Part shown: positions 678 to 32,808 of the stretch, piece after piece
How positions within the stretch are numbered: position 1 is the first letter of the stretch
How the letters are laid out: every line of letters starts with the position of its first letter
From: Stramenopiles sp. TOSAG23-2
Lineage: Eukaryota
Length of the DNA stretch: 32,895 nt
Reading direction: 5' to 3'
Assembly: GCA_900128395.1 (NCBI GenBank)
Contig: LT649361.1
Coordinates: forward strand, 1-32,895
Program-made: the position numbers and the translations under genes
The notes under the pieces: generated by a model
Databases searched by the model: none
The model's input: only the letters and a program-made list of their open reading frames with translations
What the model was told of the DNA's origin: nothing

Positions 678-936
678 AACGTCGGCTGGTCCCTCTTCAA
701 ACATCATCTCTACAAATTACGGTTATTTATGTTTTTAACGTATAGGTACATCAATATCTATAGATAGTAATGGAACAACAAGTTTGTGTGGGTAGATCGT
801 AGAACTATATATGTACATACAATTTGTACAACGTTAATAGATAGTATATAAGTAAAGGAAATTCAAAGTTTTTTGTTCTCTTTTTCTTTTTCTTTTTCTT
901 TGTGTGTGTTTGTGTTTGTGTTTGTTTGTTTGCAAA

Positions 937-2862
937 ATGTCACATGGTGGTTCGAAACATAATACATCGCCAAATCGTAAACGGAGGCAATTATTATCAA
1001 CAACAACTAAAGTCAATCCACAAATAGAAAATGGATTTACTACCTCAAAAGCATTTTGGAAATTATTCAAAGCAAGTATGGGATTCATGCCACCGTCGTC
1101 TGGGTATATACCAGTATCGGACGATGGTGGGTATGCAAAATTTCAAGCAATGGTCTCTGATTTTCGTAAAAGGTATGGTATACGTTTAGATGAAAATGAA
1201 GAAGAGAAAATGAGTGGGGATCGTGAAGATCCTTCACGTGAGGAAGCAGACTCAAAACGAATGTTAGCAGATTTTGAGAAACGTTTATCGGAACAAGATA
1301 AGGAATATGAATATACACCACAAATGGAAGATACGTTAAATTGGTCCGATGAAGCAAAGCAATTAGCTGACTTAATTTCCAATGATTTGCGATTGGAAGA
1401 AAGAAGAAGGCCAGAGTTAACGACACGATTATTTATTACAAATTATTTTAAAACATTACGTATGAAAAATATGAATATAGTACGTATTGATGAAGGGTTA
1501 AATGTATTTACATCCTTACGTGAGTTAAGTTTAAGTGGAAATCCATTAGGATCTTTGCAAAGTTTACCAAAAACACTAGTCGTTTTAAATGTTTACAATT
1601 GCAATATACGTAATGTTGGTAGTGAAACATTGCCAAACTTATTGCATTTAGGTATAGGTTATAACGAAGTGGATGATGAAGTATTAAATAGTTTTCCAAA
1701 CATTTTTCCATCAATGCTTTCACTTGATATTTCGTATAATTATATATGTAATTTCAACAAAGCAATGGAAACGTTGGCTTCGATGCCAAAAACAACACAA
1801 TTGTTAATTTGGGGAAATCCATGTACATTGATTCGCGGATATACCAGTCGTGCATTAGTAGCATTGCAAAAAGTTACACGATTTGATGGAAATAAAATTG
1901 GTGCAGATGATCGTGATCATTATGCAGAAGAATTAAATAAATTAAACGAAGAAGAAGAAAATGCTAAACCACCAGAACCAGAACCAACGGAGGAGGAAGT
2001 AATGGCAGAAAAAGAAGAAGAAGAGACTGATGGAAAGGAACAAGAAAATGATGAAGGAAAAGGTGAAAAGGAGGAAGAAGAGGAAGGAAAAAAATTTGAA
2101 GAAACAGCAACGGAAGAGGAAGATAGTAATGATTACAAGACGATATTTAATATTAATATTAAAAATGTAACAAATCCACCGCCACCTAAAATACCACCAC
2201 CACCACCACCACCAGTTGAAGAAGAATCAAGTACGGAATCAACAAAAAGTAAAAAAGGTAAAAAAGGTGGTAAAAAAAAAGGAAAAACACCAGAACCGAG
2301 TAGACCAACATCACCTGAAGATATGACACCAGAGGATTATAAAACTTTAGCAGAAGAGCAAGATTTTCGTTATTTCGTCCGCATTGTACCACCATCTGAA
2401 GCTGCAGAGCATATTGCATATACGACAAAAGCAGTATCATGGGATACAGATGTAAATATTGGTGATGTGACTGAATTGGAAATACCTCGTACAGGAGATT
2501 TAGTTCCATGTATAATGTTTGATGGTTTAAAATTAGAATTATGGGAATCATTGCCAGGTGATAAGCCACAACCTAAAGAGGGAGAAGAGGATGCTGAAAA
2601 GAAAGGAGATGAGGAAGGGGAAGAAGGTGAAACAGTTGAAGAAGATATTCCACGTAAAGATAAATTAGTTGCAATTGCTGTAGTAAATTTAAATGAATTA
2701 ATTGATGCTAAATCAAATGGTGTGAAATCAATTGATAAAACATCAATATGGAAACCACCTCTTGGTACACGTAATAAAAAACTTAGTGAAGATGTTGTTG
2801 TTAATATTAGTATTGGTATGAATACAATTAAACCACTTGAGGATGCTGTTGTAGAGGAGTAA
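937..2862 (+). CDS. LRRC43: Leucine-rich repeat protein 43-like (probably cilia-associated), with Glu/Pro/Lys-rich low-complexity C-terminal half
   Basis: First ATG at 937, in the 904 frame. FITNYFKTLRM...LRELSLSGN...LLHLGIGYN...MLSLDISYN...LLIWGNP follows the recalled LRRC43 layout (YFRSLRV..LEELVLSAN..LQHLGLGHN..LVSLDLGFN..LVLQGNP). Confidence 0.75.
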   Translation: MSHGGSKHNTSPNRKRRQLLSTTTKVNPQIENGFTTSKAFWKLFKASMGFMPPSSGYIPVSDDGGYAKFQAMVSDFRKRYGIRLDENEEEKMSGDREDPSREEADSKRMLADFEKRLSEQDKEYEYTPQMEDTLNWSDEAKQLADLISNDLRLEERRRPELTTRLFITNYFKTLRMKNMNIVRIDEGLNVFTSLRELSLSGNPLGSLQSLPKTLVVLNVYNCNIRNVGSETLPNLLHLGIGYNEVDDEVLNSFPNIFPSMLSLDISYNYICNFNKAMETLASMPKTTQLLIWGNPCTLIRGYTSRALVALQKVTRFDGNKIGADDRDHYAEELNKLNEEEENAKPPEPEPTEEEVMAEKEEEETDGKEQENDEGKGEKEEEEEGKKFEETATEEEDSNDYKTIFNINIKNVTNPPPPKIPPPPPPPVEEESSTESTKSKKGKKGGKKKGKTPEPSRPTSPEDMTPEDYKTLAEEQDFRYFVRIVPPSEAAEHIAYTTKAVSWDTDVNIGDVTELEIPRTGDLVPCIMFDGLKLELWESLPGDKPQPKEGEEDAEKKGDEEGEEGETVEEDIPRKDKLVAIAVVNLNELIDAKSNGVKSIDKTSIWKPPLGTRNKKLSEDVVVNISIGMNTIKPLEDAVVEE

Positions 2863-8554: not shown

Positions 8555-9040
8555 ATGAATAATTTAACAAGTTATAATAACAATATTACTGATGTACAAA
8601 GTATTGGTGAAGGATTAAAAACAAACAATATATTAACGCACTTGTACCTAGGTGATAATAATATTACTGATGATGGTGGAATACAAAGTATTATTGATGT
8701 ATTAAAAACAAACAATACATTAAGGAGATTGGACCTAGACAATAATAATATTACTGATGTACAAAGTATTGGTGAAGGATTAAAAACAAACAATATATTA
8801 ACGCACTTGTACCTAGGTGATAATAATATTACTGATGATGGTGGAATACAAAGTATTATTGATGTATTAAAAACAAACAATACATTAAGGAGATTGGACC
8901 TACGTAATAATCAACTTAGTTATAATATGATATCACAATTAAGACGTATACATCAATATAAAAGAGATGTACTCTGGCAAGTTAAAAAAGATGGATCAAA
9001 CGGGTATCAACAAGTGAAAGGGATGTGGATAAGCGTATAA
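8555..9040 (+). CDS. Short RNI-like LRR protein, probably an internally deleted relative (possibly a pseudogene) of the LRR gene at 25443-29017
   Basis: Repeats NNNITD(V/DGGI)QSI..LKTNN.L..L.L and C-terminal cap DGSNGYQQV..MWISV are shared with the long gene. 156 nt are identical at 8582-8737 and 8747-8902 (165-nt period). Confidence 0.65.
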   Translation: MNNLTSYNNNITDVQSIGEGLKTNNILTHLYLGDNNITDDGGIQSIIDVLKTNNTLRRLDLDNNNITDVQSIGEGLKTNNILTHLYLGDNNITDDGGIQSIIDVLKTNNTLRRLDLRNNQLSYNMISQLRRIHQYKRDVLWQVKKDGSNGYQQVKGMWISV

Positions 9041-9255
9041 TAAATTAATATTTATATTTATATACTACCAACTACAATATACCTATATATATAATACTAT
9101 TTTAAAGCTAAACAGCTTATACAGAACATCACAGAACTCATCTGGTCATCATGTCGATACCTTATACAAATATATATATTACATAAAGAACAAACAAAAG
9201 TTTACAAAGTAAAAAGAAAAGAAAAAGAACAACTACATACATATACGTAGAAACC

Positions 9256-9773
9256 ATGTTAAGTGCAAGTGCATTGACGGATTTTTTAAGCAGTGTATGT
9301 TCCGATGGAGTGGACCATGCAATCGTAGTGAATTCAGAAGGATCATTATTAGGTGTTGGTACAGCAGAAAATGTAACAACAAATGTAAGTAAAAAAAAAA
9401 GAACCCTTTCAAACATTTAATAATCTATTTCTAACAATACGTATCCATACAAATCATTTATTTACAGATATTACCTGAAATTACATCATCATTTTTGACA
9501 AATATATGGGAAAATTATGCTGGTACCACTGGTAATGGACAAAACAATATGGATACAAAATCATCGTCTACTATGAATAATAACAATAATAATAAACAAC
9601 GTCCATTAAAAGATGTTTATATCAAATTAGAAAATGGTGTTATTGCAATGGCAAAAGTAAATAATCAATACCTTGTATGTGTATGTGGTGCAACCAGTGT
9701 AAATGAAATGGCATTACGTGCTAGATTGTCCGGTTTGATTAAAGAATTAACAAACGCAATGGCAGGTCCATAA
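9256..9773 (+). CDS. LAMTOR2: Ragulator subunit LAMTOR2 (Roadblock/LC7 fold); exons 9256-9384 and 9468-9773, 144 aa
   Basis: Spliced product MLSASALTDFLSSVCSDGVDHAIVVNSEGSLLG...SFLTNIWENY...LENGVIAMAKV..YLVCV..LRARLSGL matches LAMTOR2. The 83-nt phase-0 intron has a GTAAGT donor, TTCTAAC branch site and TTTACAG acceptor. Confidence 0.92.
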
Positions 9774-9949
9774 AAATATATATATTATATATTCACTTAA
9801 TATGAAAATATATTGTTTAAAATCTAAAAAAAGAAATTTTATTATTTTACAACACGAATCTTTCCATCAAACTTTTTCTCACCACAAAATCTTTAAACAC
9901 TCCTTATTTATTAAATATATAAAATCTAATTTCATGTACGAATAGATAA

Positions 9950-10267
9950 TTATGACGCAGCAGCTGCAGGATTTGCAACGACAATGACTACGTTATCACC
10001 ACGCAAAAACATTTTACCAATATACCTATCTTTATGAGTTGCACTACCACCTTTCCTATTCGTTTCACTCCATAATTCTTTTACATTTTCAAGTACCATA
10101 TTGCAATGACGATCAAATGCTTTGACTCTTGCTAATAATTTATGGTTATTTCTTAAACTAATTAATATTTGTGTATTTTTCGTGACGCTATTCATTAATA
10201 TGGACAACGGACCTTTACTAAAATCTTCCGTCTCGTTGTCATCTTTCTCTACTACCATTGATGACAT
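9950..10267 (-). CDS. SNRPD2: Small nuclear ribonucleoprotein Sm D2
   Basis: GPLSIL...[34 protein letters not shown]...[14 protein letters not shown]. Confidence 0.97.
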
Positions 10268-10461
10268 CTTGTGTATCTTTCACTCTTCGTTGATTTCTTT
10301 TGATGATGATGATGGAGGATGATGACAAATACTTTTACCTCGTCTCTTCCCACACTTGTTTGTATAATATTAGAATATATACTAGTATTCAATTTTTGTC
10401 CATCAAAAATTCATTTTTTTAATTATAATAAATATCAAAAACCACCTTAACCTGATTGTGC

Positions 10462-21859: not shown

Positions 21860-22260
21860 CTATCAAAAAGGACACATAATTTATACTTAAGTGAAATTAG
21901 ACTATCAACAGAAAAATCACATCGCATTATCTCCTAATTTCACTAATCTAAATCTCCTAATACATTATCTCAATATCTCAGATTTCATCCTATCAAAAAT
22001 GACACATGATTTATACTTAAGTGAAATTAGACTATCAACAGAAAAATACTCATCATCTCATTCTCTCATTCTCTCATTCACCCTATCAAATGACACATAA
22101 TTTATACTTAAGTGAAATTACATTATCAATCACTCTTCATCGATTTATCCTATCAAATGACATATAATTTATACTTAATTGAAATTACATTATCAATCAC
22201 TCTTCATCGATTTATACTATCAAATGACATATAATTTATACTTGAATGGGAAATTAGAAT
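21860..22260 (+). repeat. Array of five ~40-bp conserved motifs with variable spacing
   Basis: CTATCAAA(AA)TGACAYATAATTTATACTTAAGTGAAATTA, with GACA starting at 21871, 22001, 22092, 22159, 22226 (periods 130, 91, 67, 67). A partial inverted copy lies at about 21680-21704. Confidence 0.85.
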
Positions 22261-24071: not shown

Positions 24072-24390
24072 AAAGGGTGGATCGTGAAATGAGATGATGA
24101 TTGAAGCGAGTGCATAAACGGTACTCGTATATATAAGTAAATATTTTTTATATCATAAATAAAATATCATTATATTAGAGATAGAAAAGACATGCGGCAC
24201 AGTTCAAACGATTTATAAAGGGGGTAGAGGACGCGCCAGGTGGAAAAACGAGCGAGGATTAAAATTAAATACATGTACACACATTCTTTTTTTTATTATT
24301 TTTTCACGCGAATATTTCTTTTATTTAAATTTTACAACACAACACACACACACACAACTTCTTTTAGACCCTCTTTGTATTTTTATTACA

Positions 24391-24969
24391 CTACAAGATA
24401 TTACATTTAAATGGCTTCTTTTTTGGCATTTCTTCTTCTTTTTCCTTTAACTTTTCCTCTTCAAACTTTCGTATTTCCCTAACAATTTCATAAAATACTT
24501 CGTGATCATTTATTTTTGTCTTTGCACTTGTTTCAAAAAATGGCACACCCCATTGCTCTGCCAATGCCTTCCCTTCCTCTGCTGTTACTTCACGTTCTGT
24601 TTCACCTAAGTCGCATTTATTTCCTGCTAAAACTATTGGTATATTATCATCATCTCTTGCACGCGTCATTTCGTCCATAATAGTTTCTAACTCTTCAAAC
24701 GAACCACGGTTTGTGATTGAATATACAAGTAAAAAACCTTTTCCATTCCTAATCCAAGAGTCACGCATTGCGTTGAATTCTTCTTGCCCTGCCGTGTCGA
24801 CGATGTCTACCGTTGCAGGTATCCCATCGACTTTTATTTGTTTTCGATAACTATCTTCTATTGTTGGATCATAATGTTCAGCAAAGTTATCCGTGACTAA
24901 CCGTAATGTTAATGCACTTTTTCCTACTCCACCACCACCTAATACATATATCAACATATTACCCGACAT
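24391..24969 (-). CDS. RAS: Ras-family small GTPase (Ras subfamily), 192 aa
   Basis: GGGGVGKS, effector loop YDPTIEDSY, DTAGQEEF (Gln61, so Ras rather than Rap), NKCD, ETSAK, CaaX box CNIL. Start is the ATG at 24969. Confidence 0.95.
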   Translation of the reverse strand: MSGNMLIYVLGGGGVGKSALTLRLVTDNFAEHYDPTIEDSYRKQIKVDGIPATVDIVDTAGQEEFNAMRDSWIRNGKGFLLVYSITNRGSFEELETIMDEMTRARDDDNIPIVLAGNKCDLGETEREVTAEEGKALAEQWGVPFFETSAKTKINDHEVFYEIVREIRKFEEEKLKEKEEEMPKKKPFKCNIL

Positions 24970-25442
24970 GATGTATATATATATATATACAATATATACT
25001 ATATCGATGTTGTCGTTGTTCTTATTTAACAATTGAAATAATGATCTTATTCTGTTAGAATATCTTGTTCATCATGTTATATACATCTGGACGAGCAGCA
25101 TTTACATTGTTGATATATATTATAAATAATACCACCACACAACAAAGGTTTTTTACTTCATTTACTTGTTTTTTTATTATTTTTTTTTGGTTTAGTATAT
25201 TATTTTCATACTTAATAAATTCGCTATATCTCCCGGGAAATTAGGTTTGTGGAAGCTGGAAATAGCATTGTGGTGTGGCCAAAGAAAATTGTATTATCAG
25301 ATATCAGAGCCGCCAGAAGAAAATAGGCTGAGAATGTACAATATGTTGAAGGTTGAGGAACCCGCCATGGGAATAGTACGTAATATATGGTGTAGATAGT
25401 GATATTGTAGTTGGTAGTATATAAATATATATATATTAATTA

Positions 25443-28400
25443 TTATACGCTTATCCACATCTCTTCCACTTGTTGATACCCGTTTGATCCATCTCTTTTA
25501 TATTGTTTTATAGCATATAATTGTGATTTCATATTAGAACTAAGTTGATTATTACCTAGGGACAACTCCTTTAATGTATTGTTTGTTTTTAATCCATCAA
25601 TAATACTTTGTATTCCACTATCATCAGTAATATTATTATTCTGTAGGTACAATATCTCTAATGTATTGTTTGTTTTTAATCCTTCACCAATACTTTGTAC
25701 ATCAGTAATATTATTATTATTTAGGGACAACTCCTTTAATGTATTGTTTGTTTTTAATCCATCAATAATACTTTGTATTCCACTATCATCAGTAATATTA
25801 TTATTCCATAGGTGCAATTCCGTTAATGTATTGTTGGTTTTTAATGCGTCAACAATACTTTGTACATCAGTAATATTATTATTACGTAGGTACAATCTCG
25901 TTAATGTCTTGTTTGTTTTTAATCCTTCACCAATACTTTGTACATCAGTAATATTATTATTGTCTAGGTACAATGTTGTTAATGTATTGTTTGTTTTTAA
26001 TCCATCAATAATACTTTGTATTCCACCATCATCAGTAATTAATGTCTTGTTTGTTTTTAATCCTTCACCAATACTTTGTACATCAGTAATATTATTATTA
26101 TTTAGCCGCAATGTCTTTAATGTATTGTTTGATTTTAATAAATTTCCTAACACAATAATTTGTTTATCGGTTACGCCACATTTATTCAAGTTTAATGATG
26201 TACAATTTATTATATTTTCAAATGGTTTCTTTTTTTGTAAATAATTTCTTTCAAATATAGATTTCATTTCATCATCACGACCAAGATTCGATAACCACAT
26301 AGATTGATGGTTTCTTAAACTATCGCATAATGCATTATGACCCTTTTCTGTAATCTCGTCGTTATCCTCAAATTGGAGCACTTCTAACGTTGTATTTGTT
26401 TTTAACATTTCACTTAAATATTTACATCCTTCATCACTTATATTATTTTCTGTTATATCTAATCGTGCAGTTTTCATTACTTTACGTTTTCTCATCATTG
26501 CTTTACATAGAGCAATTACACCTTCATCGCCAATATGATGTTTCGTAAAATCTATCTGGGTTGATAAATAATTGTTTTCAAACCACATTGTTACTGTTGA
26601 TGCGGGTAAGCCGCTTCCAAGCATCAGCATCATTTCATTAAATTCGTTGTTGTCAATATTATTCTTAAACACTAATTTAACAAATATTCTGAACACTTTT
26701 GCAAATCCAGTTTTACCAACTGAATCAATAACACCAATAAATAATGCAACAAAATGTTTATTAAAAAAGTCATCATCATCTTCTTCAAACACATTTTTCC
26801 ATCCAATTTTTATAAAACATTTACGTATTAATGTCAAAATACCAATACCAAATGCATAAACAATTGTATATCCAATAACCAAACATTCCCATCCTATTTC
26901 AAATCCATTTAAAAATTTCTCACCATATAAATATGGTAATAATAAAATTTTTGTTGAATAATCAAATAATTTTTCATTTGGTTTAAATCGTTTCATATAT
27001 AAATGAATAATCCATACAAAATCTATCAGACGATCAAAAAATAATATACTTAATGAATACGCCATGACAATTTGTACATTCATAGTTAAATTAGTTGGCC
27101 ATGAAAAGACTAAATTAAAATCAAAACTAATAGTAAATTGAAATGATGGCGTGAAATCAAATTCTATATTATATGTGTGTATATATTAATATTAGAAAGT
27201 AATCTTGTTAGATTTTAATATATGAGGCATGCAATATATGTATATATTTCTACTTACCTAAACGTAAAGTATCCAACATTTCTTGAAATGTTGCTAAATG
27301 ATCAGGTGTATAAATTGCAAAGAAATACAACGACACAATTGTTGATACAACAAATAAAACAGTCATAGCTTTTAATGTTAATAATTCAGTATTTTCATTA
27401 CTTTCATTGTTACTTTTTCGTACGTGATTTATTATGTCATCTTCTTCTACATTGTGCCATTTTGCTACCTGCTCTATGTTTTCTCCACTAAATTTCTTCA
27501 AATCCGACTCTTTATAACAACACAAACAACAGCGACAACAAAATGCTTTTCCTTTCAAAACTTGCTGCAAATATATATATAACATTAAAATTGTTAGTAA
27601 AACACAACATATTACATAAAAAAATATATTGAAAACAGAATTCATTTAAATATCCAAAACATAGAAAAACAAATACATATACAAGAATACAAAGTACTAC
27701 TTACAACTGGCAAATATAAAAAAACAAATGTAATTATATATACCGCAGGAATTATTGCCCATGATGTCAATAACAGTAATGGAAAAAATATTAATAATCC
27801 TATCATATAAATAACCCAACAGAAACTTACTAATGTTACATATATAAGAGCAAGCCAATCTAATTTAAATGGTTGTTTACCAGGCAATACACGATTATTA
27901 TAATCACTTAATTTTGCACTTTTCGTCCTACTCCAATGAAGATATTGTACTAATGGCATTGCTGCTGGCCACATTGATATAGAAACAGGTTTATATAATG
28001 GCATAATAGACATATGTACCGCACGACACAATATTTGTGTTCCCATTTCTTTCTCACTTGAAACATGTAAAAGTGTATTCCAATAGTCGACCACAAAATA
28101 AATAGTTGCAATAGATTGTGAAATATTAAATACCATAGATAGATATTGTCGAAAGTCTGAATTTTTTGTGGTTTCAATGTCTTCTTCTTCTTTCATCTCG
28201 TCTTCTTCTTCTTCTCCTCCCTCCTCTTCATCATCTATCTCAGGATTGAATATATTTGGTAAATTCTCTTCTAAATTATTTATCTTATCGTCTTCTCTAT
28301 TAAATAATTCCGGGATCCGTTCTTCAATACTTGCGATGTTATCCTCAGCAGACTCAAGAACATTATTTTTTATCACATCCACTACATTTGTATCGTTTTT

Positions 28401-29017
28401 GCCGTCAGTCTTTCCAGAAATTGTAGCATTGGCAGTATTTATATCCTTTACATCTTTTTCTTTCTTCTTTTGTTTACATCCACTACATTTGTATCGTTTT
28501 TGCCGTCAGTCTTTCCAGAAATTGTAGCATTGGCAGTATTTATATCCTTTACATCTTTTTCTTTCTTCTTTTGTTTAATATCTTCTGACAAATTTTGTTT
28601 CAATATGGAAGTGGCGCGATTCATTGGCGTTACTTTTTTATTACTAGAATTCGACTTTGTTTTTTTAAATGCATCAACCACATTAACTCTATGTCGTGTA
28701 CGATGCCATGTTTTTTTAGCTTTTTTCTTTCTTTTCTTTTTATCTCCACTATGATGTAAATATTCTAATCCTGCTTTGACTGGAGCTAATAAAATTAACA
28801 CTGCATTCATTGCAACAACAAGTAAACATGTCGATATTAAAAAAGATAGTGGGGATAAATGATTCATCGTATCAACACTTTCAATTGGTACTTCACATGC
28901 CAACGATATTGTTTTTGCTAAAAAAAATTGATGTCCATCAAATTCATTTGTATCGATAGGGATAGGGATAGGAATGGTATTGTTTGTTGTGATATTATTC
29001 ATTGTTAAATTATTCAT
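25443..29017 (-). CDS. Large multi-TM protein with C-terminal RNI/NLRC3-like LRR array; exons 29017-27705, 27564-27258, 27163-25443; exon 1 contains a 101-nt tandem duplication (~1079 aa if removed)
   Basis: Four ORF-track fragments join in frame. Intron 27704-27565 (GTAAGT..TACTAAC..TTGCAG, phase 0); intron 27257-27164 (GTAAGT..TTCTAAT..TAG, phase 1). Removing one copy of the 28375-28576 duplication links the 29017 and 28382 frames. Confidence 0.8.
28375..28576. repeat. Exact tandem duplication, 101-nt unit
   Basis: 28375-28475 = 28476-28576; frameshifts the LRR gene. Confidence 0.92.
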
Positions 29018-29151: not shown

Positions 29152-29361
29152 CTAGTAAAGATAGTAAAAATATATATTATTATAACTAGAAGAAGAATGA
29201 AGAATAACTGCCCCAGAGAAGATACATAGAAGATGACCTTTTTTTTTTACCTCCTTCTAGTAAAGATAGTAAAAATATATATTATTATAACTAGAAGAAG
29301 AATGAAGAATAACTGCCCCAGAGAAGATACATAGAAGATGACCTTTTTTTTTTACCTCCTT
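29152..29361. repeat. Exact tandem duplication, 105-nt unit
   Basis: 29152-29256 = 29257-29361 (CTAGTAAAGATAG...TACCTCCTT). Confidence 0.92.
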
Positions 29362-31758: not shown

Positions 31759-31943
31759 TGTAAAGTCATACAACCACACATGAAATATCATATATATATA
31801 TAAAAAATTCTCTTATTTCATAAGTTAAAAAGATTTTATTTACTCATACTGTTAATATTCACTATATATAATGTGTAATTACCAGAAATAATATAATAAA
31901 TTGAAAGATATAACTAAACCGGAAAGACCTATATATATGATAT

Positions 31944-32217
31944 ATGTATGATATTGTTTTATTGAAAAAATATTTTTTGACCATGATATGCATATATTTA
32001 TTGACGTAAAGATACATTATATCTTAACATTTTTAATCTCTCCTATCACACACCCATTTTATTCAGTTTTAAATATTAATATGTATGATATTGTTTTATT
32101 GAAAAAATATTTTTTGACCATGATATGCATATATTTATTGACGTAAAGATACATTATATCTTAACATTTTTAATCTCTCCTATCACACACCCATTTTATT
32201 CAGTTTTAAATATTAAT
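31944..32217. repeat. Exact tandem duplication, 137-nt unit
   Basis: 31944-32080 = 32081-32217. Confidence 0.92.
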
Positions 32218-32808
32218 CTTCTTTCTTGTTCACATTTTTAACAATACTCTTACCAAAAGGAATATAATCCCATAATAATTCATGTAAATATAAAATCAAT
32301 GTTTTCAGCGTAGTATCAATTGGACCAAGACGTAATGCAGTTGCTATTTCTCCTGTAACAATATATGTAATGCCCATGGATAAAGAGACAGCGACAACTT
32401 TCCAAAAGGAATATAATCCCATAATAATTCATGTAAATATAAAATCAATGTTTTCAGCGTAGTATCAATTGGACCAAGACGTAATGCAGTTGCTATTTCT
32501 CCTGTAACAATATATGTAATGCCCATGGATAAAGAGACAGCGACAACTTTCCATGATAACATCTTAATCAATCGTTTCATTTGCAGACTTTGCAAGGAAT
32601 CCATCAACCATATTCTCTCAAAAATATAATAACAAACAAATTTAAATGCAAAATCTGGTAGACCAACTTTAATGGCAACATTCAAAGTTCCAGTTAATAA
32701 AAATGCAATTAATATTGTTTGCCCTGTAGCAAAAATTCTCCACGACAACGATTTAAAAAACGTTCTTTGCCTTGTATGCACTTCAATATTTTCTGTTTCA
32801 GTCGACAT
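32213..32808 (-). CDS. Tandem DUF2061-like membrane protein (~148 aa once the 149-nt duplication is removed)
   Basis: Two DUF2061-type units: KSLSWRIFAT...KFVCYYIFERIW and KMLSWKVVAV...KTLILYLHELLW. Removing the duplication joins the 32808 and 32422 frames. Confidence 0.75.
32253..32550. repeat. Exact tandem duplication, 149-nt unit
   Basis: 32253-32401 = 32402-32550; frameshifts the DUF2061 gene. Confidence 0.92.

What the first reader, a model, noticed from the sequence alone, without database searches (positions are those of the whole stretch)
25540..26130. LRR repeats with a near-invariant DNA scaffold and four hypervariable codons (VLR-like diversification)
Seen: repeats read ACA TTA nnn nnn TTG nnn CTA nnn AAT AAT on the coding strand, and even the synonymous Leu codons are fixed. 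The four n-codons differ almost every time: AAG ACA/CGG/AAT, ACA ACA/TAC/GAC, ACG AGA/TAC/CGT, ACG GAA/CAC/TGG, AAG GAG/TCC/AAT, GAG ATA/TAC/CAG, AAG GAG/TCC/GGT. The paralog at 8555 adds ACG CAC/TAC/GGT, AGG AGA/GAC/GAC and AGG AGA/GAC/CGT. These codons often end in G or C, against the strong A/T codon bias of the window. Established: the x positions of LxxLxLxxN form the concave ligand-binding face, which diversifies in lamprey VLRs, plant NLRs and Ectocarpus LRR-ROCO genes. Inference: a protist recognition or immune receptor family diversified by repeat shuffling, gene conversion or targeted mutation.
Basis: partly seen in the sequence, partly recalled or inferred. Interest (0 to 1): 0.8.

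Follow-up and report, generated by a model that had tools for sequence, protein, structure and literature searches.

The report
Hypervariable LRR cassette gene family
A marine protist carries a large gene family whose leucine-rich-repeat tails have almost identical DNA except at four surface codons per repeat, much like the recognition repeats of fungal immune receptors.

Summary
Gene g1 (25443-27083, minus) and the short paralog g2 (8555-9040) carry RI-type LRR units whose DNA is nearly invariant except at four codons, x1-x4 of LxxLxLxxN. In 134 units from the window and 42 related loci, scaffold codons are frozen at rare codons: CTA 125/134 and AAC 128/134. The x codons read NNG, NNA, NNC, NNT, with near-random first two bases and 128 distinct four-codon sets.

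The window is nuclear DNA of an uncultured marine stramenopile. The repeats belong to a C-terminal cassette (cap, units, conserved tail, about 45-65 nt of 3'UTR). It is fused to unrelated N-termini: TIR, caspase, kinase, XK-related, ankyrin, helicase.

Best reading (0.62): a germline family of intracellular recognition proteins. Exchange between copies keeps the scaffold uniform, and selection diversifies residues on the concave face. The closest known case is the highly conserved WD/ANK/TPR repeats of fungal NLRs, here in LRR form.

VLR-like somatic assembly and DGR-type mutagenesis are not supported. Somatic variation could not be tested, because only contigs were available. One collinear allele pair shows no speed-up at x codons, so diversification is episodic or driven by exchange.

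The parts
25443..27083 (-). g1: 546-aa gene. It has a hydrophobic N-terminal region, older diverged RI-type LRRs, then the highly uniform LRR cassette and tail.
   Evidence: ORF. Pfam LRR_6 scores 75.2 bits against a cutoff of 23.4. Translation.
25554..26138 (-). Array of alternating 26-aa (A) and 29-aa (B) LRR units of g1. The seven x1-x4 clusters lie at 26100-26117, 25962-25979, 25884-25901, 25806-25823, 25719-25736, 25641-25658 and 25554-25571. One unit is truncated, with its junction at 26039/26040.
   Evidence: Codon listing. Tandem repeats of period 78 and 165. Variability test. The AF2 strands cover x2-L-x3-L-x4.
25446..25553 (-). Conserved C-terminal tail NNQLSxNMKSQLxAIxQYKRDGSNGYQQVxGMxIxx. 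It has further hypervariable codons, including W543 and S545 in the last strand.
   Evidence: Per-codon entropy across 34 loci. Last strand at E243-245 of the model.
25396..25442 (-). 3'UTR block shared by the cassette family.
   Evidence: Conserved across 34 loci. Exact 25-mer at 25401-25425 and a one-mismatch copy after g2. Unrelated flanks join at 25402 and 25418 in runs X1 and X2 (table 7).
8555..9040 (+). g2: a 161-aa orphan cassette of four units plus tail, with no N-terminal domain. Its x clusters lie at 8636-8653, 8723-8740, 8801-8818 and 8888-8905. A 165-nt duplication is 99% identical.
9057..9081 (+). Copy of the family 3'UTR block downstream of g2.
   Evidence: one mismatch; 0 matches expected by chance.

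Best explanation
g1 and g2 belong to a large germline family in an uncultured marine stramenopile. Each member ends in a modular RI-type LRR cassette: cap, n units, a last B unit, a conserved tail and a short 3'UTR block. The cassette is attached to many unrelated N-terminal domains, among them TIR, caspase, kinase, XK-related, ankyrin and helicase/ATPase.

The cassette DNA is kept almost uniform within and between genes. Exchange among copies does this: unequal crossing-over, ectopic recombination or gene conversion, together with birth and death of units. Natural selection on the protein diversifies the four or five outward-facing beta-strand residues of every unit and a few tail residues. 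The result is a repertoire of different concave binding surfaces.

The proteins most likely act as intracellular recognition modules coupled to signalling or cell-death effectors.

Shown here: the anatomy, the frozen scaffold, the codon-phase pattern, the family size and the domain fusions. Inferred: exchange as the homogenising force, selection as the diversifying force, and the immune or recognition role.
For: 1. The scaffold is frozen by descent or homogenisation, not by codon bias.
- Among 134 units, L23 is TTG in 133/134, L25 is CTA in 125/134 and N17 is AAC in 128/134. The next Asn is AAT in 112/112.
- In 14 other window ORFs, CTA makes up 2% of 448 Leu codons and AAC 12% of 413 Asn codons.

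2. The signature follows codon phase.
- x1 is NNG in 101/134 units, x2 NNA in 89/134, x3 NNC in 114/134 and x4 NNT in 114/134.
- The first two bases are near-random: 14 of the 16 possible NNC codons and 14 of 16 NNT codons occur.
- At x3 the third base is T, the change that is always synonymous, in only 2/134 units.
- Diversity at positions 1-2 of x2-x4 is 0.63-0.74. Diversity at scaffold third positions is mostly 0.00-0.13.

3. NG86 rates. dN at x1-x4 is 1.13 (91 A units) and 1.01 (41 B units). Scaffold dS is 0.125 and 0.037.

4. Homogenisation. g1 and its syntenic homolog L011 have dS 0.38, 0.30 and 0.36 in the N-terminal region and two upstream genes. Their LRR scaffolds have dS of only 0.03-0.05. 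The conserved block continues into the 3'UTR.

5. Selection on the product.
- Stops at x2 number 3, against 20.6 expected from the base frequencies.
- T at the second base, which gives hydrophobic residues, is rare: 15/134 at x3 and 4/134 at x4.

6. Structure. The AF2 model (pLDDT 74) places x2-L-x3-L-x4 in the strands. The best fold matches are ribonuclease inhibitor, NOD2 and NLRP1/3 LRRs.

7. Family.
- 66 loci encode the tail, 36 of them in one assembly.
- N-terminal domains found are TIR_2, ResIII/AAA, Peptidase_C14, SidE_PDE, XK-related, Pkinase and Biotin_lipoyl, plus ankyrin.

8. Exchange. In pairs with 97.9-99.4% identical downstream flanks, x codons are replaced wholesale while the scaffold stays the same. 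In L003/L018, 20 mismatches fall in 12 x codons, 10 in 9 tail x codons and 3 in the remaining coding positions.

9. The same regime is published for fungal NLR repeats (PMC1805685 abstract; PMC4986451 passages).
Against: - The one pair that is collinear on both sides (L037/L038, upstream flank 98.15% identical) shows no clear speed-up. There are 4 mismatches in 36 x codons against 14 at the other coding positions of 265 codons. A steady omega of 10 or more is therefore unlikely. Diversification must be episodic or come mainly from exchange.
- The four x codons of a unit are statistically independent across units. Pairs sharing 3 of 4 codons show no excess: 25 observed, 31.8 expected. Gradual divergence from duplicates would predict some excess, and whole-unit shuffling of a fixed set of unit types is not seen.
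- Gene conversion tracts cannot by themselves homogenise third bases and the single Leu codons between x codons while sparing the first two bases. Selection has to do that sorting.
- The wholesale replacement in syntenic pairs, and the loss of synteny at the cassette (W versus L011; L003 versus L018), could come from chimeric short-read contigs. 32 of 66 loci end inside or next to the cassette.
- No formal site model and no recombination test were run.
- The immune role rests on domain composition alone.
Confidence: 0.62

Rival explanations
1. Programmed diversification. Either a dedicated mechanism rewrites the x clusters, or functional genes are patched from orphan cassettes such as g2, as in VLR or chicken Ig gene conversion. 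It would act somatically or at particular life-cycle stages.
For: - The first two bases of x codons are saturated while neutral divergence is almost nil.
- The four codons are independent, and partly diverged unit pairs show no excess.
- Orphan cassettes without N-terminal domains exist: g2 and L019.
- In-frame stops occur at x positions in 5 of 149 units.
- x clusters are replaced wholesale beside 99% identical flanks.
Against: - The pattern follows codon phase. Third bases of the x codons and the TTG and CTA codons between them are as frozen as the scaffold. No known mutator works that way, but selection on amino acids produces it automatically.
- Stops are strongly depleted, 3 against 20.6 expected, and the residue spectrum is biased.
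- g1 is a complete ORF in the assembly.
- L037/L038 keep nearly all of their 36 x codons; only 4 nucleotides differ within them.
- No reverse transcriptase, deaminase or recombinase domain was found in 20 window ORFs.
- DGR-type adenine mutagenesis is excluded by invariant four-fold A positions: GTA 91/91, ACA 116/119, CTA 125/134.
Confidence: 0.1
2. Neutral explanation. The x positions are simply unconstrained surface residues that have drifted for a long time. The scaffold is held by ordinary purifying selection on the protein plus codon bias.
For: In every LRR family the x positions of LxxLxLxxN are the least conserved (established knowledge). Amino-acid entropy is 2.5-3.7 bits at x1-x4.
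Against: - Scaffold synonymous sites are fixed at codons that are rare in this genome: CTA 2% and AAC 12% of their amino acids.
- Synonymous change inside the x codons themselves is only a few per cent, while positions 1-2 are saturated.
- Scaffold dS is about ten times lower than dS of flanking genes in the same gene pair.
- A non-coding 3'UTR block is conserved as well.
Confidence: 0.05
3. Assembly artefact. Short-read assemblers collapse or mis-join the repeats and so create uniform scaffolds and chimeric arrays.
For: - 32 of 66 loci end at the cassette.
- Logan contigs of runs X1 and X2 break at 25430 and at 26063/26109, and the array is covered only by pieces of about 60-130 nt.
- The window holds four exact tandem duplications of 101-149 nt, which look like join artefacts.
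- Synteny breaks at the cassette.
Against: - Each x cluster spans only 18 nt, and every scaffold base lies within about 35 nt of a cluster. The within-unit pattern is therefore read directly and not assembled.
- The same pattern recurs in the window, four WGS assemblies and five metagenome sets.
- It also appears at the protein level in proteins that sources label as GOS scaffolds (P0001, P0008).
- A single-copy-depth contig in X1 matches the window's last unit and tail with 0 differences (record 3).
Confidence: 0.05

Closest known systems
Highly internally conserved WD40/ANK/TPR repeats of fungal NLR-like genes (Podospora het-d/het-e/nwd family). Sources seen: PMC1805685 abstract and outline; PMC4986451 passages; PMC10197012 passages.
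   Same: Repeats are nearly identical within and between loci (concerted evolution). About four positions per repeat on the binding surface are under positive diversifying selection. Repeat number varies, N-terminal effector domains vary, and the proposed role is non-self recognition.
   Different: Here the repeat is an RI-type LRR; PMC4986451 reports no LRR in fungal NLRs. Most members seen lack a NACHT or NB-ARC domain. The uniform module includes a conserved non-repeat tail and a 3'UTR block. The host is a stramenopile. RIP, a fungal process, is not expected.
Ectocarpus LRR-ROCO and NB-ARC-TPR candidate receptors (PMC3341825, passages).
   Same: Stramenopile lineage. LRR units are shuffled between genes, positive selection acts on concave-face residues, and orphan units have been proposed as a reservoir.
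   Different: In Ectocarpus each LRR is a separate 72-nt exon shuffled through introns and attached to ROC-COR. Here the array is one continuous ORF, there is no ROC-COR in g1, the LRR is RI-type, and the scaffold is far more uniform at synonymous sites.
Tetrahymena 90-bp-exon LRR genes (PMC6564038, abstract and passages).
   Same: A very large, young LRR family in a protist, with nearly identical units in different genes. The authors attribute this to ectopic recombination or gene conversion.
   Different: That system is exon-per-repeat with phase-2 introns. The passages I read do not describe four hypervariable codons in a frozen scaffold.
Lamprey variable lymphocyte receptors (recalled, and as cited in PMC3341825).
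   Same: Binding specificity sits in hypervariable concave-face residues of otherwise similar LRR units. LRR-only cassettes lie in the genome.
   Different: VLRs are extracellular LRRs with Cys-rich caps. They are assembled somatically from flanking cassettes into an incomplete germline gene. None of these features was found here.
Repeat-variable diresidues of TAL effectors (recalled; no call).
   Same: Near-identical DNA repeats with the variation confined to a couple of specificity codons.
   Different: TALEs use a small alphabet of diresidues that reads DNA. Here the codons are near-random and independent (128 distinct sets in 134 units).

Membership tests
RI-type (LRR_6) leucine-rich repeat superfamily | Pfam LRR_6 match above the curated cutoff | tested here: met
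   g1 scores 75.2 bits and g2 44.1 bits against a cutoff of 23.4.
RI-type (LRR_6) leucine-rich repeat superfamily | Strand-helix solenoid resembling ribonuclease inhibitor and NLR LRR domains | tested here: met
   The AF2 model has alternating strands and helices. Top Foldseek hits are 1a4y, 4peq, 5irm (NOD2) and 4im6 (NLRP1), with E about 1e-8.
Lamprey VLR system | LRRNT/LRRCT cysteine caps and an extracellular stalk | tested here: not met
   No LRRNT or LRRCT family appears in the Pfam scan. The tail contains no cysteine.
Lamprey VLR system | An incomplete germline gene completed from flanking LRR cassettes | tested here: not met
   g1 is one uninterrupted ORF from the N-terminal domain to the stop. 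Orphan cassettes do exist (g2, L019), but nothing shows that they act as donors.
Lamprey VLR system | Somatic differences between cells of one individual or clone | not testable with these tools
   Only Logan contigs were available, and they break at the cassette.
Diversity-generating retroelement (DGR) | Adenine-specific differences between template and variable repeat | tested here: not met
   Four-fold and two-fold A positions in the scaffold are invariant: GTA 91/91, ACA 116/119, CTA 125/134, AAA 126/127.
Diversity-generating retroelement (DGR) | A linked reverse transcriptase | tested here: not met
   No RT family was found in 20 of the 24 window ORFs of 120 aa or more. The other four are antisense overlaps and were not scanned.
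Fungal-type highly conserved repeat regime (concerted evolution plus site-specific diversifying selection) | Repeats as alike between loci as within loci | tested here: met
   Scaffold distances are 0.05-0.10 for A units and 0.01-0.07 for B units, both within and between sources. Scaffold dS is 0.03-0.05 between g1 and L011, against 0.30-0.38 in their flanks.
Fungal-type highly conserved repeat regime (concerted evolution plus site-specific diversifying selection) | A few hypervariable codons per repeat on the binding surface, with dN far above dS | tested here: met
   The rates are counting estimates (NG86); no site model was run.
Fungal-type highly conserved repeat regime (concerted evolution plus site-specific diversifying selection) | Repeat-number variation among members | tested here: met
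   Tail-bearing ORFs carry 0-8 recognisable units. Many of these are truncated by contig ends.
NLR / STAND receptors | A central NACHT or NB-ARC domain | tested here: not met
   None in g1 or in 15 of the 16 cassette ORFs scanned. L017 has TIR plus ResIII/AAA_16/AAA_22.
Ectocarpus LRR-ROCO family | A ROC-COR GTPase and one LRR per exon | tested here: not met
   g1 has no Roc or COR domain. The array is a continuous ORF.

The most novel reading that the evidence does not exclude
The x clusters are written by a programmed process that replaces or randomises the first two bases of four spaced codons in one step. This could be templated patching from orphan cassettes such as g2, or an unknown site-specific mechanism. 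It would give a unicellular stramenopile an anticipatory LRR repertoire comparable in logic to VLRs.

The evidence does not exclude this. Neutral divergence is almost nil while the x positions are saturated, the codons are independent, no excess of half-diverged units was seen, and differences between cells could not be examined.
Probability: 0.08. Interest if true: 0.95.

Novelty: new variant of a known kind. Interest (0 to 1): 0.68.

Why it matters
Uncultured heterotrophic marine stramenopiles are major grazers, and almost nothing is known about how they recognise viruses, bacteria or each other. This family joins dozens of TIR, caspase, kinase, scramblase-like and other domains to one hypervariable LRR module. 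It looks like a ready-made recognition repertoire.

It also shows that the regime described for fungal WD/ANK/TPR receptors, a uniform scaffold with a few diversified surface codons, arose independently with LRRs in another eukaryotic supergroup.

The contrast is extremely clean: four NN-plus-fixed-base codons in an otherwise frozen 78/87-nt unit. That makes it a good natural system for separating selection, gene conversion and possible programmed diversification. It is also a natural template for LRR binder design.

My searches of the held library found no description of it. Subscription journals and supplementary files were not visible.

Tried and rejected
- The whole genome of the window is not held.
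- The look-up of sequencing runs was busy four times and then answered.

Read laying gave only Logan contigs.
- They confirm the unique flanks of g1 in runs X1 and X2 with 0-1 differences, and they break at the cassette. They cannot link x clusters to flanks or compare cells.
- The "other letters" inside the array come from short, high-depth pieces of paralogs. They are not evidence of variation at this locus.
- X2 has no laid contig over the last x cluster (25553-25568). That proves nothing.
- RNA run X17 has short pieces on the array with 4-8 differences each. This shows at most that relatives occur in an RNA library, not that g1 is transcribed.
- Summed depth over the array is 20-150 times the flank depth in X1, but the tool warns that this is not a copy number.

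Other results:
- The viral-contig scan found no relative.
- The profile search of 1.84 billion representatives gave 6649 hits at E <= 1e-3. Most match only the generic LRR unit, so it gives no family size.
- The listing of cluster members gave no organism names.
- L058, which is 97.8% identical to window 9164-10342, holds about 1.8 kb more than the window between the tail and that stretch. It has no obvious mobile-element ORF; Pfam was not run on it.
- The idea of a TALE-like small alphabet of unit types was rejected by the independence test.
- Species-specific homogenisation was not seen: within-source and between-source scaffold distances are alike. The sources may be one species complex.
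Full report
**What is at the coordinates**

The finding lies in the 3' half of a 546-aa ORF on the minus strand, g1 (25443-27083). Pfam reads g1 as RI-type LRR: LRR_6 scores 75.2 bits against a cutoff of 23.4.
- Its last 230 residues are an array of alternating 26-aa units (NNNITDVQSIGEGLKTNNTLxxLxLx) and 29-aa units (NNNITDDSGIQSIIDGLKTNNTLxxLxLx). Tandem Repeats Finder sees these as periods 78 and 165.
- The array is followed by a tail, NNQLSxNMKSQLxAIxQYKRDGSNGYQQVxGMxIxx.
- A second ORF, g2 (8555-9040, plus strand, 161 aa), consists of four such units plus the tail and has no N-terminal domain.

I tested the 10 full units of the window, leaving out one truncated unit. Of the 12 x-codon columns, 11 vary; of the 33 neighbouring scaffold columns, 4 vary (P = 1.4e-6).

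**What kind of DNA this is**

The window has GC of about 0.30 and is densely packed with eukaryotic housekeeping genes. These include TYW2/3, an HMGL-like enzyme, an RNA polymerase Rpb3-like subunit, acetyl-CoA synthetase, the beta subunit of mitochondrial processing peptidase, IF-2 and a CAAX-box Ras.

The best named relatives of the processing peptidase are oomycetes, labyrinthulids and diatoms, at 65-74% identity. An unnamed metagenome protein is 100% identical. I therefore read the window as nuclear DNA of an uncultured marine stramenopile.

No whole genome is held for the window.

**The family**

A protein search with g1 found no identical entry. It found many metagenome proteins that are 63-72% identical over the LRR part and have unrelated N-termini. 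Of the 120 listed, 14 carry the tail motif (sequences).

A back-translated scan of metagenome contigs with the tail profile returned 66 loci. Thirty-six come from one WGS assembly (prefix JACLAC01), 9 from JACLAD01 and 7 from JACKZZ01. The rest come from one further assembly and five metagenome sets.

Pfam on 16 cassette-bearing ORFs and three further hits gave these N-terminal domains:
- TIR_2 (L005, L017)
- ResIII/DEAD/AAA (L017)
- Peptidase_C14 (L028)
- SidE_PDE (L027)
- XK-related (L002, P0374)
- Pkinase (P0342)
- Biotin_lipoyl (P0241)

Precomputed annotations add ankyrin and kinase. One short protein, P0118, joins a tyrosine-recombinase domain to a diverged cassette. No relative was found in viral contigs.

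**The codon pattern across the family**

Anchoring only on QS[IV]...L..N gave 140 candidate units. Six lacked the Leu skeleton and were dropped, which left 134 units from the window and 42 loci.

Scaffold codons are almost fixed, synonymous choice included:
- CAA 134/134
- AGT 133/134
- GTA 91/91
- TTG 133/134
- CTA 125/134
- AAC 128/134, followed directly by AAT 112/112

Codon bias does not explain this. In 14 other ORFs of the window, CTA is 2% of Leu codons, AAC 12% of Asn codons and TAC 16% of Tyr codons, and GC3 is 0.19.

The four x codons behave differently:
- x1 is NNG in 101/134 units, x2 NNA in 89/134, x3 NNC in 114/134 and x4 NNT in 114/134.
- The first two bases are close to random. 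Fourteen of the 16 possible NNC codons and 14 of the 16 NNT codons occur.
- There are 128 distinct four-codon sets among the 134 units.
- Where the third base departs from the common one, the change mostly alters the amino acid, for example TGG, AAG and GAA at x3. The C-to-T change at x3, which is always silent, occurs in only 2/134 units.

So silent change inside the hypervariable codons is as rare as in the scaffold. The single Leu codons between the x codons are frozen too. A fifth position (N27) is moderately variable, with the same NNT shape. The tail has further hypervariable codons, notably the two outward residues of its last x-I-x strand.

**Rates**

- Nei-Gojobori counting gives dN of 1.13 and 1.01 at x1-x4 for 91 A units and 41 B units. 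Scaffold dS is 0.125 and 0.037.
- g1 has a syntenic homolog, L011, which shares the N-terminal region and two upstream genes at about 80% nucleotide identity.
- In that pair, dS is 0.38, 0.30 and 0.36 outside the cassette and 0.03-0.05 in the LRR scaffold.
- The conserved DNA block also runs about 45-65 nt past the stop codon in 34 aligned loci. Its core 25-mer occurs after both g1 and g2 and nowhere else in the window.
- Scaffold distances within a source equal those between sources.

Together these results show that the cassette is kept uniform at the DNA level. Protein-level constraint alone does not account for it.

**Selection or mutation**

A mutational process does not know codon phase. 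Here the variable bases are exactly the first two of each of four codons. The silent third bases and the intervening TTG and CTA codons stay frozen.

The product is also filtered. Stops at x2 number 3 where 20.6 would be expected from the base frequencies. T at the second base, which encodes hydrophobic residues, is rare. Tyr, Asp, Ser, His, Asn and Arg dominate.

DGR-type adenine mutagenesis is excluded, because silent A positions in the scaffold are invariant. I therefore attribute the diversity to selection on amino acids.

**Structure**

An AlphaFold2 model of residues 301-546 (pLDDT 74, no alignment) is a strand-helix solenoid. Its strands cover x2-L-x3-L-x4, and its last strand is W543-I-S545. 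Foldseek ranks ribonuclease inhibitor, NOD2 and NLRP1/NLRP3 LRR domains highest. By established LRR geometry, the x residues of the strand face the concave surface.

**How the diversity is distributed**

The four codons of a unit are statistically independent across units. Pairs sharing 0-3 codons match the shuffled expectation. Only 7 pairs share all four, and all of them are tandem duplicates or alleles. So there is no small alphabet of unit types.

Unit types keep some preferences of their own. For example, TAC at x2 occurs in 14/34 last B units against 7/90 A units.

**Near-identical pairs**

Three pairs have downstream flanks that are 99.4%, 97.9% and 99.1% identical, yet their x codons are largely replaced while the scaffold is unchanged:
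- L003/L018: 20 mismatches in 12 x codons, 10 in 9 tail x codons and 3 elsewhere in the coding part.
- L011/L013: 19, 10 and 7, plus 2 at x5.
- L001/L049: 4, 3 and 1, confined to one tract of about 100 nt that starts between x2 and x3.

This looks like exchange with other family members. It could also be chimeric assembly, because synteny ends at the cassette in these cases and 32 of 66 loci end at the cassette.

The only pair collinear on both sides, L037/L038, has an upstream flank that is 98.15% identical. It shows 4 mismatches in 36 x codons against 14 at other coding positions. That is no clear speed-up, and it argues against continuous hypermutation or a steady, very high omega.

**Reads**

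Two small runs of one organism (X1, X2) hold 88% and 84% of the sampled words of 24300-27300. Their contigs match the unique flanks of g1 with 0-1 differences and stop at 25430 and at 26063/26109. Inside the array there are only short, high-depth pieces. In X1, one piece at single-copy depth matches the window's last unit and tail exactly.

Contigs cannot link clusters to flanks or compare cells, so somatic variation remains untested.

**Comparison with known systems**

The closest published regime is that of fungal NLR-like genes with highly conserved WD, ANK or TPR repeats.
- There the repeats undergo concerted evolution within and between loci.
- Four surface positions per WD repeat are under positive diversifying selection.
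- N-terminal effector domains vary (PMC1805685 abstract; PMC4986451 and PMC10197012 passages).
- PMC4986451 states that no LRR motifs occur in fungal NLRs.

Ectocarpus LRR-ROCO genes (PMC3341825, passages) and Tetrahymena 90-bp-exon LRR genes (PMC6564038, abstract and passages) shuffle LRR exons, but through introns.

The present case works like the fungal one. It differs in several ways:
- It uses an RI-type LRR.
- It mostly lacks a NOD domain.
- It includes a conserved tail and a 3'UTR block in the uniform module.
- It sits in a marine stramenopile.

Library searches for a description of it found nothing. Supplements and subscription journals were not visible.

**Verdict**

The mechanism I think most likely is concerted evolution of a modular cassette plus diversifying selection on concave-face residues (confidence 0.62). 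Programmed diversification remains a low-probability alternative that has not been excluded.

Noticed in passing
window 28375-28577, 29152-29361, 31942-32217, 32249-32553: Four exact (99-100%) two-copy tandem duplications of 101, 105, 137 and 149 nt lie within 4.2 kb, some of them inside ORFs. They look like contig-join artefacts, which bears on how far the assembly of repeats in this window can be trusted.
   Followed up: no
window 22082-22256; L002 3248-3324, L005 1524-1573, L016 258-304, L021 863-924, L034 318-486: A 67-nt tandem repeat (2.6 copies) has relatives in five loci, in both orientations. They lie 50-290 nt downstream of the cassette stop, just beyond the conserved 3'UTR block. 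It may be a dispersed element associated with cassette ends.
   Followed up: partly
L011 1150-3198: The syntenic homolog of g1 reads through its first tail into a second complete cassette (cap, units, tail) within one 682-aa ORF. This suggests that whole cassettes can be added in tandem.
   Followed up: partly
L003, L010, L023 (x2 = TAA), L029 (x1 = TAG), L050: In-frame stop codons sit exactly at x positions in otherwise open arrays. All three TAA cases are followed by TTG TAC CTA, and two share the whole cluster GAG TAA TTG TAC CTA GAT in different loci. They may be pseudogenised units, C-to-A errors from TAC, or copies of one unit spread by exchange.
   Followed up: partly
L037 2668-2915 versus L038: Nineteen differences cluster in 250 nt of the array, mostly C>A or G>T. 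Elsewhere the pair differs by about 1.3-1.9%. This may be damage or amplification error, or a converted tract.
   Followed up: no
window 26039-26040 (g1 residues 348/349): One g1 unit lacks exactly the nine codons x1 to N29 (LKTNKTL|ITDDGG). This is a scar of unequal exchange between units or a mis-assembly.
   Followed up: no
window 904-2862 (+): A separate 652-aa ORF has a different LRR type, with weak hits to LRR_4 and LRR_9. It is not part of the cassette family.
   Followed up: no
L058 137-1896 versus window 9091-9164: A locus 97.8% identical to the window downstream of g2 carries about 1.8 kb more between the cassette tail and the shared stretch. This is an insertion or deletion polymorphism next to a cassette.
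   Followed up: partly
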